From Escherichia coli (GTDB lineage Bacteria; Pseudomonadota; Gammaproteobacteria; Enterobacterales; Enterobacteriaceae): 64,000 nt of DNA. The DNA lies in the NCBI RefSeq assembly GCF_050920415.1, contig NZ_CP169310.1. One strand, written 5' to 3'. Shown here piece by piece: positions 42,001 to 45,000 of this stretch. Made by a program: the position numbers. Positions within the stretch are counted from its first letter, which is position 1; each line of letters starts with the position of its first letter.

Positions 42001-45000
42001 CTACTATATTGTAACGGTTTTCACTATCACCAAAGCTGACGTTTGTATATCCCCCGTTATGTTTCACACTGGCGATATACTGCGGGTTAATTAGTGTCGC
42101 CACACCGCTTCCTGAATTCACGGAACTTAAATCCGGCATAGCCGCTTTATCCAGCGTACCTACAAGCTCTCCCTGCTTATTATAAATGGCGATATTCGTT
42201 GCCCCCGGGCGGAACATACCTTTATTCTCAGCAAAATCACGAAATAACTGATAGCCAAGTTCATTATTAACTGTTCCCGCAAAGCCTCCTGCAGAGAAAA
42301 GTACGGACGTCAGCAATAAAACAGGAAGGCGCAAACGCCCGACTGATTTTAAATTACATTTTCTGGCAAACTCAGAGACGGCAATAAAACCCCGGGCCAC
42401 AGAGCTGTAGCGTAAAGAATAAATTCTGTTCATTTTTAATTAACCCTGAAAAAAATAAAATCAGCACTCTCAGGCATAACGGATAATCACCGTCATCCCT
42501 GCCCGCCAGGCTGACTGTCCTGTAACCGGTTCACTGAAATGAAGATTAAGAACTGTGCCGGAAGAAATCCCGAGTACATATGCCCCGGAATAAAACCAGC
42601 CTTCCCCCACCAGGTCCTGATAACCACTTTCATCAGCAATCACAGGTGAATCAGGCACACCCGGAACACCCAATTTCAGTTGTTTCCAGATACTTTCTGC
42701 TGACACCTCACCTTCCGTCATCCGGGAAATGAAACTCAGCCCGTCAGCCGTGCTCCACGCGTTGCTGTCAGGTACGCCGCCATTAAACACATAAGCATCA
42801 GCACTGTTATTCCCCAGTGTCTGGGTTATTCTGGCACCAAAGCCATCCTCTTCCGCCCACGCAAGCGCCCCGAAAGCCTGAACCTCTGCCGCCAGAGTGC
42901 CTGTCGTCTGAGAGTCTCCGGTAACATTCAGTGGCAGTACAAGCAGCCCCTGTCCCGGTGTACCACTGGCCCACTGAATGCGAATTTCGCCTCCGTCACT
43001 TCCCACCAGTTGAATGACAGGAACAATACCGGCACCGGATGTCTCACTGCCCTCAAAAGCACGTGCCGACTTACCGGCAAGCAGCAGAAGGTCATGGGGA
43101 GCACTAACCGTCAAGCGTGTTTATTACTGGTCAGCTCACTGATTTTGTTGCTGAACCCGGTATATCCGCCCGTTTTCCACAACCAAGGAGGAAGGGTGTC
43201 ATCATAAGGCATGATGGTCCCCCTTAATCCCACAGACCCCTGAAAGTCCCTGCCAGAGTGCCATCCGGTATCAGCAGAAACTTTCCCGCAGATTAATAAT
43301 ATGATAATAAGAAAAGCCTCAATCACAGCATTCTGACGCACGTTCATTCCCCTCAGATATATCTTCACTCATATTATTCACTCGAGGTGAAGTTTCTTTT
43401 ATTTTTCTGCAGGCCTCATAAAGTACTCTTCCACTATCACATGTACTTCAATCCCTCTGATATAAAGCTCAAATGAAGAGCGAAGGTAATGTCTTTTATA
43501 TTCGCCTAAAGGTTTCGCCCTAGCCTGCTGACAAAATGAATACCCTGGCGATATAAAAACATAAAAGAAGTTGAAGTAAGAAAAAACACTGCCGTAGTCT
43601 GAAAAATTAAACACCGGAGCCAAGCAATCAGAAATAAAATGAAATCACTTAAATGTATTTAATTTTTTCAGGAGTGATTTACCGATTACACCGCTGACAT
43701 TGTTTATATTCACAACAAAATATATCCACCTTTTCCGTTCTGTCGAAATCCCCCTGCAGATACACCCAGAAAGCACAGATAGTTCACCTTCGCCTGTGTT
43801 TCCACACCTTCTGCCACCATCCACCATATCAATCCCTAGCTTTCCTGCCAGCCCGACAACACGGAACATCCGGTTCCTAAATCATCCAGAGCAAATTCAA
43901 CACCTGCATCACTCAGCTAACCAGCATACGCTCAGTCTGCCTATCCATGTTAAACGGCTGCAACTCCATCAACTCCAGAACCAGATGTATGCTGTCATGC
44001 CCTGCCAGCGCCAGACACATCTGAGTGAACTTACGCTCAGCCAGCAGGATCGGCCTCACATTCACAGCAAGCCGGAAACCGAAACTACACGGCAGCATGG
44101 ATTAGCAGTTCAACACCAGATACGGTAAAGTCTGGTGAAGAAACCAACGGCTGGAGATATGGTTTAAACTTCCCGTTACTAAGCACACGGAGCTGTCTCT
44201 CTGAGGATACAAAATCACTGTCCATACTGCGGTTTCTCCATTTTATGAACCACCTTGTCCAGCCCGGTCATCAGTAACATTTTGAAATCTCTCACCCCCA
44301 CATTCTCTGCCAGCCGGGCGTAATGCCAGTACAGACCTCGCTCACTCTGGTTCAGAGGACGGACTCTTCCTCTCTCAGAAAGGCGTTTCAGTGCCAGTCG
44401 CTGTCCGGAGGTCAGACGGAATTTACCAGCACGTAATGACTTTATGTTCAGTGCCATACGCACAGTTCTTTCCAGGTCCGACAAAGGCATGCATCCGCTG
44501 TACACCGGGCAGATATTTCGTAACACCTTCAGCATCTCCAGCCTTTCCGGCACCAGAACCAGCATTTCACCGGACATTTCCGCCCTCACTTCACATATAC
44601 TGGATAAATGACGCCCCCATCCCGCAACAGGCTCTGCACTTAGCGCCACAATAATCAGATCCCAGCCCTCCCGGGAACAAGTATATCCCAGTGGCACACG
44701 GTAAACGTCGTATCCACTGTCTGATAACAGGCTCCATAGCCCTGTCAGCTCATACCAGCAGGTTCCAGTCAGCAGAATTTTTTGTCTTACACTTACAACA
44801 TTTACCACATCAATACCACACAGAACATTATCACTATCAGCACTAGGAATGCTATACAGGTAATGAAGGAACGGGCACCGAGCACCTACAACATCGGTAC
44901 CACGATCCCCTCCTTATTAGAAGTACACCACCACCGGAATCAGATTCCCCTGCCAGCGTTTTACCGGCTCCTCAGCACCGGGGAAATTAACCCGCACATC

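What the first reader, a model, noticed from the sequence alone, without database searches (positions are those of the whole stretch)
44215..44808. Orphan LuxR-type regulator with a degenerate receiver-like domain downstream of the fimbrial operon
Seen in sequence: a 197-aa protein with a C-terminal LuxR-type HTH and an N-terminal region that resembles a response-regulator receiver domain, but no cognate histidine kinase nearby. It lies between the last fimbrial gene and the frameshifted fimbrial-like gene. Inference: an atypical (phosphorylation-independent) regulator that may couple fimbrial or autotransporter expression to another signal.
Basis: inference. Interest (0 to 1): 0.33.

Follow-up and report, generated by a model that had tools for sequence, protein, structure and literature searches.

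The report
Fimbria-linked pseudo-response regulator, PDE partner dead
The 197-codon gene is real and encodes a response-regulator-like protein that cannot be phosphorylated; it belongs to an unnamed enterobacterial family found beside adhesin operons, and its usual partner gene, a c-di-GMP phosphodiesterase, is a wreck in this plasmid.

Summary
The ORF at 44215..44808 (- strand, GTG start) is a genuine gene. It is conserved in about 124 protein clusters of Enterobacteriaceae, all annotated 'hypothetical', and dN/dS against relatives is about 0.2.

Standard HMM analysis (Pfam, NCBIfam, PDB sequences) finds no domain.
- A superfamily profile aligns end to end with NarL/UvrY/RcsB/EvgA/FimZ/CsgD (hhalign 95%, E 4e-8).

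All five receiver active-site positions are replaced (D13, D14, D59, S87, K109 of NarL correspond to G15, T16, A55, V86, G105). None of 52 superfamily members has the acceptor Asp. The first helix of the helix-turn-helix is shortened to a proline-containing loop.

In relatives the ORF overlaps by 11 nt an intact EAL-only phosphodiesterase whose closest solved homologue is PdeL. In the window that gene (43700..44225) is a heavily deleted pseudogene. Distant family members also sit in or beside fimbrial or pilus clusters, and several lie next to EAL genes.

Most likely this is a phosphorylation-independent, adhesin-operon-linked regulator that was ancestrally coupled to c-di-GMP turnover. Its function is untested. 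Interest is moderate.

The parts
44215..44808 (-). 197-codon ORF (GTG start, TGA stop) encoding the pseudo-receiver / LuxR-like protein; RefSeq WP_231360990.1 'hypothetical protein'
44443..44784 (-). N-terminal pseudo-receiver domain (residues 9-122). The fold is b1-a1-b2-b3-a3-b4-a4-b5-a5, and helix a2 is missing. NarL D13, D14, D59, S87 and K109 are replaced by G15, T16, A55, V86 and G105. The family signature residues G15, C17, Y19, E20, S57, W64, R66, P87 and G105 lie in or beside the segments that hold the receiver active-site positions.
44218..44427 (-). C-terminal basic (pI 11) LuxR/GerE-like helical domain (residues 128-197). Helices are at 134-146, 154-170, 175-180 and 183-194. The first HTH helix is replaced by the loop RVRPLNQ (148-154).
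44848..44850 (-). Position of the ancestral start codon: ATG in the 95%-identical relative P0001 and in the chromosomal relatives, ATT in the window
44215..44225 (-). 11-nt overlap ATGGACAGTGA between the stop codon of the ORF and the start codon of the EAL gene. It is conserved in relatives (A41 reads ...AGTAA) and suggests translational coupling.
43700..44225 (-). Pseudogene of an EAL-only c-di-GMP phosphodiesterase. Relative to the intact 759-nt gene it has deletions of 60, 68, 1, 103, 5 and 3 nt and a 7-nt insertion. The deleted parts include the catalytic Lys/Asp segment. RefSeq also marks it as a pseudogene.
44917..45690 (-). faeJ-like last gene of the F4 (K88)-family fimbrial operon, 108 nt upstream of the ORF. 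No promoter-like or terminator-like site above chance lies in the gap.
42470..43347 (-). Extra F4-family fimbrial subunit gene downstream of the module. In the window it is split by a single-base deletion near 43121; in the sister plasmid it is intact (879 nt).
38594..42433 (-). SPATE (S6 peptidase autotransporter) gene, the last gene of the conserved island (fae-like operon, regulator, EAL, F4 subunit, SPATE)

Best explanation
Shown:
- The ORF is a selectively maintained gene for a two-domain protein descended from NarL/FixJ-type response regulators.
- Its N-terminal domain has a CheY-like fold in which every phospho-transfer residue is replaced. A different, family-invariant set of residues (G15, C17, Y19, E20, S57, W64, R66, P87, G105) lies in or next to the segments that hold the active-site positions.
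- Its C-terminal domain is very basic and LuxR/GerE-like. It keeps the recognition helix (conserved Y160, H162, R165, G171) and the last helix, but has lost the first helix of the helix-turn-helix.
- It belongs to an unnamed family restricted to Enterobacteriaceae whose members lie inside or next to adhesin gene clusters.
- In the window's own clade it is the gene after faeJ of an F4-like fimbrial operon and overlaps by 11 nt a PdeL-like EAL phosphodiesterase gene.

Inferred:
- It is made together with the fimbrial operon and acts without phosphorylation as a transcription regulator. It would act alone or as a partner of another LuxR-type protein, and would adjust fimbrial, motility or other surface programmes while the fimbriae are being made. 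EcpR/MatA, MrkI and PefI-SrgD do this for their operons.
- Ancestrally its output was tied to local c-di-GMP through the co-translated phosphodiesterase.
- In this plasmid the phosphodiesterase gene is destroyed, so the regulator now works uncoupled from it, or is itself beginning to decay.
For: Gene reality:
- Identical on at least 12 plasmids, and the exact protein is seen on 102 contigs.
- 124 homologous clusters.
- dN/dS 0.20-0.23 over dS about 0.4.
- The frame is intact, while the adjacent EAL gene at the same nucleotide divergence (85%) carries 7 indels.
- The closest relative (95%) also keeps the gene without an EAL gene.

Fold and homology:
- AF2 pLDDT 78.6.
- The C-domain model (pLDDT 82.6) best matches VqmA, GerE, QscR, ChrA, TraR, DegU, RcsB and NarL DNA-binding domains.
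- Foldseek gives full-length alignments to AmiR, FixJ, RcsB, VpsT and StyR.
- hhalign of the superfamily against six E. coli NarL-family proteins gives 94.9%, E 4e-8, 172 collinear columns.
- hhalign against the EcpR/MatA family gives 75%, E 2.5e-5, 148 columns.

Loss of phospho-chemistry: the residue equivalences come. 0 of 52 members have Asp at the acceptor position and 49 of 52 have Gly at the Lys position.

DNA-binding potential: the C-domain has pI 11 (17 K+R against 6 D+E).

Genomic context:
- After faeJ plus an EAL gene in E. coli chromosomal islands.
- At the 3' end of K88-like operons in Salmonella plasmids and in Edwardsiella.
- Inside a PapB/usher/chaperone operon with an EAL gene two genes away.
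- Beside Afa-type and other chaperone-usher operons.
- After a PapB-like gene.
- Beside the Longus/Cof type IV pilus cluster.
- Beside EAL genes.

The EAL partner of relatives has a full-length Pfam EAL match (2e-62). Its closest solved homologue is YahA/PdeL (2e-52). The catalytic motifs ELL..N..ELTE..DDFGTG..K.D..EGVE..QG can be read in its sequence.

Analogues from the literature:
- MrkI (197 aa, LuxR-type) next to MrkJ (EAL) at the mrk fimbrial locus (PMC3161979).
- PdeL as a LuxR-HTH plus EAL 'trigger' phosphodiesterase (PMC5052742).
- MatA among the RcsB auxiliary partners (PMC5829831).
Against: - No experiment exists for any member of the family; every source calls it hypothetical.
- Pfam GerE and Response_reg do not match this protein or any of 52 relatives.
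- The close family alone does not reach significance against NarL-type regulators (probability 0.6%). The homology claim therefore rests on the wider superfamily profile and on predicted structures.
- In this clade the scaffold helix of the HTH is missing, so DNA binding is uncertain.
- The window copy has lost the ancestral ATG, has a further 2-residue deletion in that same loop, and has no strong Shine-Dalgarno sequence before the GTG.
- Truncated 120-aa forms occur on more than 200 contigs, so the gene is dispensable in some lineages.
- Co-transcription with the fae-like operon is inferred only from gene order and the lack of detectable signals.
Confidence: 0.55

Rival explanations
1. It is not a DNA-binding regulator but a protein-binding adaptor. 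Through its repurposed receiver face or its LuxR-like last helix it would bind the co-translated EAL phosphodiesterase, controlling or being controlled by it as in a trigger-phosphodiesterase pair. Alternatively it would bind a resident LuxR-type regulator such as RcsB, as the auxiliary partners RcsA, BglJ and MatA do.
For: - The first helix of the HTH is lost in this clade.
- The 11-nt overlap with the EAL gene suggests equal-ratio co-production.
- Invariant non-catalytic residues lie in or beside the segments that hold the old active-site positions.
- The profile hit to full-length RcsB spans both domains.
- The pseudo-receiver protein AmiR, which is regulated by partner binding, is the top Foldseek match.
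- RcsB heteromers with MatA and others are documented (PMC5829831).
Against: - The C-domain is extremely basic (pI 11), and the recognition-helix positions Y160, H162 and R165 are conserved across the superfamily. This is more typical of a nucleic-acid binder.
- The gene persists where the EAL partner is gone and in clades that never have one adjacent.
- No interaction could be tested here.
Confidence: 0.2
2. In this plasmid the ORF is a decaying leftover with no remaining function. The module was inactivated (EAL gene destroyed), and the regulator gene is next, having already lost its start codon.
For: - ATG is changed to ATT at the ancestral start, and there is an extra 2-residue deletion in the HTH loop.
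- The EAL pseudogene lies next door.
- The next fimbrial subunit gene is frameshifted in the window.
- Truncated alleles are common elsewhere.
Against: - There are 197 intact codons and no indel that breaks the frame, while the adjacent EAL remnant carries seven indels at equal divergence.
- dN/dS is about 0.2.
- An in-frame GTG lies just before the conserved core, where many relatives start anyway.
- The allele is fixed in at least 12 plasmids and seen on 102 contigs.
Confidence: 0.15
3. It is itself a c-di-GMP receptor, a VpsT-like LuxR-family effector. Its degenerate receiver domain would bind the nucleotide through the conserved GWGR / E20 / S57 site, and the neighbouring phosphodiesterase would set the ligand level.
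For: - EAL genes recur beside deep branches of the family, and a GGDEF gene occurs near one member.
- A Trp and a basic residue two positions later are nearly invariant (W64 in 50 of 52, R/K66 in 42 of 52).
- VpsT is among the full-length structural matches.
Against: - The VpsT motif W[F/L/M][T/S]R is absent from the sequence (read directly).
- The conserved Trp lies in the b3-a3 region, not where VpsT binds the ligand.
- Many members have no c-di-GMP enzyme gene nearby.
- There are no binding data.
Confidence: 0.08
4. It is an ordinary orphan response regulator phosphorylated by a chromosomal histidine kinase.
For: Receiver-like fold.
Against: All five phospho-transfer positions are replaced, and none of 52 relatives has an Asp at the acceptor position.
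Confidence: 0.02

Closest known systems
NarL/FixJ (LuxR-type) response regulators, e.g. NarL, RcsB, FimZ, UvrY, EvgA
   Same: - Same two-domain order and size (about 200 aa).
- Collinear profile-profile alignment over 172 columns.
- Receiver-like and GerE-like predicted folds.
   Different: - No acidic pocket, acceptor Asp, Thr/Ser or Lys.
- Helix a2 of the receiver and the first HTH helix are missing.
- No Pfam Response_reg or GerE match.
- No partner kinase gene nearby.
- Different invariant residues in the segments that hold the active-site positions.
EcpR / MatA (E. coli common pilus operon regulator; Pfam PF27348 + GerE)
   Same: - A 196-aa, phosphorylation-independent LuxR-type regulator encoded in a fimbrial operon.
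- Best single-sequence match among the K-12 proteins tested.
- Family-to-family hhalign gives 75%, E 2.5e-5 across both domains, including a shared '..LS..' segment at the former acceptor site.
   Different: - EcpR has a canonical GerE HTH and its own N-domain Pfam family; the window protein matches neither.
- EcpR is the first gene of its operon, whereas this gene is the last.
- EcpR has no EAL partner.
MrkI-MrkJ of the Klebsiella type 3 fimbrial locus (mrkHIJ)
   Same: A 197-aa FixJ/LuxR-family regulator gene next to a gene for a ~240-aa EAL-only phosphodiesterase, beside a chaperone-usher fimbrial operon. Both influence fimbrial expression through c-di-GMP (PMC3161979).
   Different: - mrkHIJ is convergent to mrkABCDF and includes the PilZ activator MrkH, which has no counterpart here.
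- mrkI and mrkJ are separately transcribed, whereas these two genes overlap.
- Homology to MrkI could not be tested because no MrkI sequence was available in the tools. No long list of Klebsiella hits appeared in the exhaustive search.
PdeL (YahA), LuxR-HTH + EAL 'trigger' phosphodiesterase of E. coli
   Same: - The EAL partner's closest solved homologue is PdeL (2e-52).
- The family's C-domain profile gives an in-register sub-threshold hit to the PdeL HTH (E 0.15).
- Together the two genes reproduce the order LuxR-like then EAL.
- PdeL links c-di-GMP sensing to transcription (PMC5052742).
   Different: - Here there are two polypeptides instead of one, with an added pseudo-receiver domain and a degenerate HTH.
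- There is no evidence that the C-domain is closer to PdeL than to any other LuxR-type HTH (GerE and RcsB score the same).
- In the window the EAL half is dead.
CsgD / VpsT and other atypical receivers (AmiR)
   Same: - LuxR-family regulators, or ANTAR in the case of AmiR, whose receiver-like domain works without classical phosphotransfer.
- VpsT and AmiR are among the full-length structural matches.
   Different: - CsgD and VpsT retain an Asp and a canonical GerE domain.
- The VpsT c-di-GMP motif is absent.
- CsgD aligns with the family only in the HTH region.
PefI-SrgD of the Salmonella pef operon
   Same: Small regulators encoded at the 3' end of a K88-related fimbrial operon. In Salmonella relatives of this family a FaeA/PapI(PefI)-like gene directly follows the family member.
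   Different: SrgD (orf7, 116 aa) is a plain GerE-domain protein (Pfam 1.9e-7) without a receiver-like domain. It aligns with the family only over 24 residues.

Membership tests
NarL/FixJ-type response regulators | N-terminal CheY-like receiver fold | tested here: met
NarL/FixJ-type response regulators | Phospho-acceptor Asp, acidic pair, Thr/Ser and Lys of the active site | tested here: not met
   NarL D13, D14, D59, S87 and K109 align with G15, T16, A55, V86 and G105. 0 of 52 superfamily members have Asp at the acceptor position.
NarL/FixJ-type response regulators | C-terminal GerE/LuxR-type domain recognised by Pfam PF00196 | tested here: not met
   0 Pfam hits at E<=10 for the protein and at E<=1 for 52 relatives. 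The control SrgD gives GerE at 1.9e-7.
NarL/FixJ-type response regulators | Four-helix LuxR-type DNA-binding fold with a complete helix-turn-helix | tested here: inconclusive
NarL/FixJ-type response regulators | Cognate histidine kinase gene adjacent | tested here: not met
   No kinase is annotated in 50 kb of the 99.99%-identical sister plasmid, nor in the relatives' islands.
EcpR/MatA family | Pfam PF27348 N-domain plus GerE | tested here: not met
   EcpR homologues carry PF27348 + PF00196. The window protein matches neither. Profile-profile similarity is 75%, E 2.5e-5, which indicates relatedness, not membership.
VpsT-type c-di-GMP-binding LuxR regulators | W[F/L/M][T/S]R c-di-GMP-binding motif | tested here: not met
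   Read directly from the sequence: the Trp residues are followed by YE, SL, DL, GR and HY, so the motif does not occur.
PdeL-type LuxR-EAL trigger phosphodiesterases | LuxR-type HTH and catalytic EAL domain in one polypeptide | tested here: not met
   In relatives these are two separate overlapping genes. The EAL gene is a pseudogene in the window. The relatives' EAL domain is most similar to PdeL.
MrkI/MrkJ-type fimbrial c-di-GMP modules | Sequence homology of the regulator to MrkI | not tested
   No MrkI sequence could be obtained from the collections offered. Only the architecture is compared, taken from PMC3161979.
Unnamed adhesin-linked pseudo-receiver family (defined here) | Signature G-x-C-x-[YF]-E (b1-a1), A-L-S-x-x-P-x-x-G-W-x-[RK] (b3-a3), V-P (b4), G (b5), Y-x-H-x-x-R...L-G (C-domain); about 185-230 aa | tested here: met
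   All signature residues are present in the window protein. Profile E-values to family members run from 1e-102 down to 1e-3.
Unnamed adhesin-linked pseudo-receiver family (defined here) | Location in or beside an adhesin (chaperone-usher, type IV pilus, autotransporter) gene cluster | tested here: met
   The window gene follows faeJ. Of the other contexts sampled, 10 show an adhesin cluster. The exceptions are a 3-kb contig that shows only an EAL gene and a second Edwardsiella copy beside a K88-subunit fragment.

The most novel reading that the evidence does not exclude
The ~200-aa protein and the overlapping EAL protein form a two-polypeptide 'split PdeL', that is, a trigger-phosphodiesterase module dedicated to an adhesin operon. 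The pseudo-receiver's repurposed face (GxCxYE / ALSxP / GWGR / VP / G) would dock the phosphodiesterase or c-di-GMP itself, so that local c-di-GMP turnover gates the regulator's output. Loss of the EAL half, as in this plasmid, would then lock the regulator in one state. This would define a new, widespread family of c-di-GMP-linked fimbrial regulators in STEC/ETEC plasmids, Salmonella virulence plasmids and the large Salmonella plasmids of ~255-325 kb, and Longus pilus plasmids.
Probability: 0.2. Interest if true: 0.6.

Novelty: new variant of a known kind. Interest (0 to 1): 0.4.

Why it matters
Regulators encoded inside fimbrial operons (PapX, MrpJ, EcpR/MatA, PefI-SrgD, MrkHIJ, FimK) are how enterobacteria avoid being adhesive and motile at the same time.

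This ORF represents a further such family that has gone unnoticed. No HMM library recognises it and every database calls it hypothetical. Even so, it is present on hundreds to thousands of contigs:
- STEC/ETEC virulence plasmids;
- S. Dublin and S. Pullorum virulence plasmids and large Salmonella plasmids of about 255-325 kb;
- ETEC Longus/CFA-III pilus plasmids;
- a cluster that includes a Citrobacter rodentium ICC168 protein;
- Cronobacter, Enterobacter and Edwardsiella.

If it controls adhesin expression, or couples it to c-di-GMP, it would be a handle on colonisation-factor regulation in several pathogens. It would also be another example of a receiver domain re-used for something other than phosphotransfer.

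For this particular window the practical message is modest. The gene is a plausible but unproven regulator, and its signalling partner is already dead.

Tried and rejected
- Pfam and NCBIfam scans of the ORF at E<=10 gave nothing. A Pfam scan of 52 relatives gave only scattered chance hits and no GerE or Response_reg.
- A profile of the 28 close homologues against PDB sequences gave only chance-level hits such as CFAP97D1 and FliT. The close-family profile against the NarL-family alignment was not significant. Only the wider superfamily profile worked.
- SrgD of pSLT was considered as a possible homologue because Salmonella relatives sit beside a PefI-like gene. It was rejected: SrgD is a short canonical GerE protein and aligns over only 24 residues.
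- A FimK- or PdeL-like fused architecture was considered. The exhaustive search returned no long (HTH+EAL) proteins apart from one unrelated 1115-aa hit.
- Named family members were sought through cluster look-ups. All were 'hypothetical', apart from one stray UniRef 'LuxR family' label and one 'Membrane protein' label.
- A promoter/terminator scan of 42300..45800 gave counts no higher than in shuffled sequence and nothing in the faeJ-ORF gap. It was not used as evidence beyond 'no detectable signal'.
- Literature searches for faeJ + EAL found 0 papers. K88-like + STEC + plasmid + autotransporter found 1 paper, which was not read.
- The Foldseek afdb50 library was not available.
- The + strand ORFs overlapping the gene (87, 55 and 51 aa) are not annotated in the RefSeq copies of this region and were not searched or pursued.
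Full report
**1. What is at the coordinates**

- The - strand carries an uninterrupted ORF of 197 codons at 44215..44808, with a GTG start and a TGA stop.
- The window is a 99.992%-identical copy of E. coli plasmid pCFSAN004181P. RefSeq annotates exactly this ORF there as 'hypothetical protein' WP_231360990.1.
- The same sequence occurs on at least 12 complete plasmids and 102 assembled contigs.
- A database search gave 124 homologous clusters, all from Enterobacteriaceae, all 'hypothetical', none with a Pfam domain.
- Against chromosomal relatives that are 85% identical in DNA, dN/dS is 0.20-0.23 at dS about 0.4.
- The ORF is therefore a real, selectively maintained gene and not a chance frame.
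- The ancestral ATG, present in the 95%-identical relative P0001 and in the chromosomal copies, is ATT in the window (44848..44850). The in-frame GTG 14 codons later lies just ahead of the conserved core, where many relatives start. The start codon used is therefore inferred.

**2. Domain question: N-terminal domain**

- Pfam and NCBIfam give no hit at E<=10.
- 52 relatives give no GerE or Response_reg hit.
- A profile of the close family finds nothing meaningful among PDB sequences.

- An AlphaFold model built on 28 homologues (pLDDT 78.6) shows b1-a1-b2-b3-a3-b4-a4-b5-a5 followed by four helices.
- An exhaustive profile search extended the family to 112 representatives with identity to the window protein as low as about 15%.
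- The resulting 52-sequence profile aligns collinearly over 172 columns with an alignment of NarL, UvrY, RcsB, EvgA, FimZ and CsgD from E. coli K-12 (hhalign probability 94.9%, E 4e-8).

In that alignment the NarL residues D13, D14, D59, S87 and K109 correspond to G15, T16, A55, V86 and G105 of the window protein.
- Within the close family these replacements are invariant (A55 in 27 of 28).
- In the 52-member superfamily the acceptor position is never Asp (A/C/S/T/G/P), and the Lys position is Gly in 49 of 52.
- Seven NarL residues (S39-I45, the a2 region) have no counterpart in the alignment, and the model has no helix there.
- Instead the family conserves G15, C17, Y/F19, E20 (invariant in 52 of 52), S57, W64, R/K66, P87 and G105. 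These residues lie in or next to the segments that hold the five active-site positions.
- This is a pseudo-receiver. Phosphorylation-dependent control can be excluded from sequence.

**3. The C-terminal domain**

- A profile of the C-terminal regions gives sub-threshold hits to GerE (E 0.084), RcsB (0.084), PdeL (0.15) and DosR in the correct register.
- The domain is very basic: pI 11, with 17 K+R against 6 D+E.
- The segment equivalent to the first helix of the helix-turn-helix (NarL 'LPNKMIARRLDI') is cut to 'RVRPLNQ' and modelled as coil. The window allele is two residues shorter still than its relatives.
- The most distant family members retain a helix-2-like segment, for example '...VTDQALRFGLNYKTIFHYR...'. 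The loss is therefore specific to this clade.
- The domain is thus LuxR-derived, but its DNA-binding competence is open.

**4.

- In chromosomal islands of E. coli A41 and H22 the order is fae-like operon, a 213-aa homologue, a 251-252-aa EAL-only protein, an F4 subunit, then a SPATE gene (intact in H22, frameshifted in A41). The two middle genes overlap by 11 nt, ATGGACAGTGA/TAA.
- The EAL proteins match Pfam EAL over their full length (2e-62).
- Their closest solved homologue is YahA/PdeL (2e-52).
- All motifs expected of an active enzyme can be read in the sequence: ELL, N, ELTE, DDFGTG, K.D, EGVE, QG. Which residues are required for activity rests on established knowledge of EAL enzymes.
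- In the window this gene (43700..44225) has lost 240 of 759 nt in six deletions and gained a 7-nt insertion. RefSeq flags it as a pseudogene.
- At the same nucleotide divergence (85%) the regulator ORF has no frame-breaking change.
- The 95%-identical relative also keeps the regulator without any EAL gene; a StcE-type protease and a type II secretion system follow it instead.
- The regulator therefore appears to have value independent of the phosphodiesterase. Truncated 120-aa alleles on more than 200 contigs show it can also be lost.

**5. Context across the family**

| Family member(s) | Genomic context |
|---|---|
| Salmonella relatives (S. Dublin and S. Pullorum virulence plasmids; large Salmonella plasmids of about 255-325 kb) | 3' end of K88-like operons, followed by a FaeA/PapI-like gene |
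| Edwardsiella | 3' end of a K88-like operon |
| Cluster of E. coli plasmid genes that includes a Citrobacter rodentium ICC168 protein | Inside a PapB-subunit-usher-chaperone operon, with an EAL gene two genes downstream |
| P0164 | Directly upstream of an Afa-type chaperone-usher operon |
| P0209 | After a PapB-like gene |
| Salmonella member P0160 | Convergent with a chaperone-usher operon |
| P0151 and an ETEC plasmid homologue | Beside the Longus/CofJ type IV pilus cluster |
| Enterobacter member | Between an AraC-type gene and a pertactin-type autotransporter, with a GGDEF gene nearby |
| Cronobacter member | Beside an EAL gene and a dispersin/ABC-transporter cluster |
| P0206 (metagenomic contig) | Beside an EAL gene |

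Adhesin linkage is therefore general. EAL linkage recurs in deep, separate branches but is not universal.

**6. Mechanism**

Shown:
- A NarL/FixJ-derived protein that cannot be phosphorylated.
- A basic LuxR-like C-domain.
- Gene order and overlap that imply co-expression with the fimbrial operon and, ancestrally, with a PdeL-like phosphodiesterase.

Inferred:
- It acts as a phosphorylation-independent regulator produced with the fimbriae.
- It adjusts fimbrial, motility or other surface programmes, with c-di-GMP as the likely second input.

The nearest functional precedents are:
- EcpR/MatA, a fimbrial-operon LuxR-type regulator. Family-to-family hhalign gives 75%, E 2.5e-5. MatA is also listed among RcsB's auxiliary partners (PMC5829831).
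- MrkI (197 aa) next to the EAL enzyme MrkJ at the mrk locus (PMC3161979).
- PdeL, where a LuxR-type HTH and an EAL domain in one chain make c-di-GMP turnover control transcription (PMC5052742).

Rivals:
- A non-DNA-binding adaptor that docks the EAL protein or RcsB.
- A direct c-di-GMP receptor. The VpsT motif is absent.
- A decaying remnant in this plasmid.
- A classical orphan response regulator. This is excluded.

**7. Comparison and novelty**

- The protein is related to, but fails the membership tests for, canonical NarL/FixJ regulators. It has no active site, no Pfam match and an incomplete HTH.
- It also fails the tests for the EcpR family (no PF27348 or GerE match), VpsT-type effectors (no motif) and PdeL (two polypeptides).
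- It is best described as a member of an unnamed, adhesin-linked pseudo-receiver family, that is, a new variant of the known kind 'atypical LuxR-type response regulators'.
- Nothing here is categorically new, and no function has been demonstrated.

**8. Verdict**

- Observation: partly confirmed.
- Interpretation: partly supported, and sharpened in two ways. The 'other signal' is probably c-di-GMP, and the module is half dead here.
- Interest: 0.4. A specialist in fimbrial regulation would find the family and its recurring EAL link worth testing, but would not be greatly surprised.

Noticed in passing
window 43700..44225 (-): EAL-domain phosphodiesterase pseudogene directly after the ORF. It has six deletions (60, 68, 1, 103, 5 and 3 nt) and a 7-nt insertion relative to intact relatives.
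   Followed up: yes
window ~43121 (within 42470..43368, -): The 'frameshifted fimbrial-like gene' differs from the intact 879-nt F4-family subunit CDS of sister plasmid pCFSAN004181P by a single missing base (GTGTT-TATT against GTGTTCTATT). This could be a real mutation or a sequencing error.
   Followed up: partly
window ~17618..17836 (+): sta1, the gene for heat-stable enterotoxin STa, is annotated on the sister plasmid. The plasmid therefore combines an ETEC toxin with a SPATE and F4-like fimbriae.
   Followed up: no
window 39566..39895 (within the SPATE gene, -): Perfectly phased 165-nt tandem duplication inside the SPATE coding sequence. In the protein it appears as the repeated block VQEKDGRVYWQLKSHAGTTESQISP...GSTEADGI.
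   Followed up: no
window ~3693..9718, ~21833..26429 and ~27336..37514: Plasmid-borne metabolic and surface cargo annotated on the sister plasmid: a gentisate degradation cluster with a LysR regulator; fdnGHI formate dehydrogenase-N; and a glycosyltransferase / ABC transporter / alginate-export-like polysaccharide cluster.
   Followed up: no
L009 9010..9582; L016 1527..2099: Distant homologues (26-28% identity) of the ORF sit convergent to the prepilin peptidase gene of the Longus/CofJ type IV pilus cluster on ETEC plasmids. One such protein is seen on 506 contigs. The family is therefore not restricted to chaperone-usher fimbriae.
   Followed up: partly
L031 7001..10707: In the closest relative (95% identity) the regulator keeps its ATG start and is followed by a StcE/TagA-type metalloprotease and type II secretion genes, not by an EAL gene or SPATE.
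   Followed up: partly
L008 15297..16523; L010 17258..17809: Salmonella virulence plasmids (S. Dublin, pSLT) carry a separate EAL-domain gene elsewhere on the plasmid. In S. Dublin it is paired with a CaiF/GrlA-family regulator gene. This is another small regulator-plus-EAL pairing and is unrelated in sequence to the one studied.
   Followed up: no
cluster of the window protein: Truncated 120-aa versions of the protein occur on 142 + 66 contigs, which indicates independent decay of the gene in some E. coli lineages.
   Followed up: no
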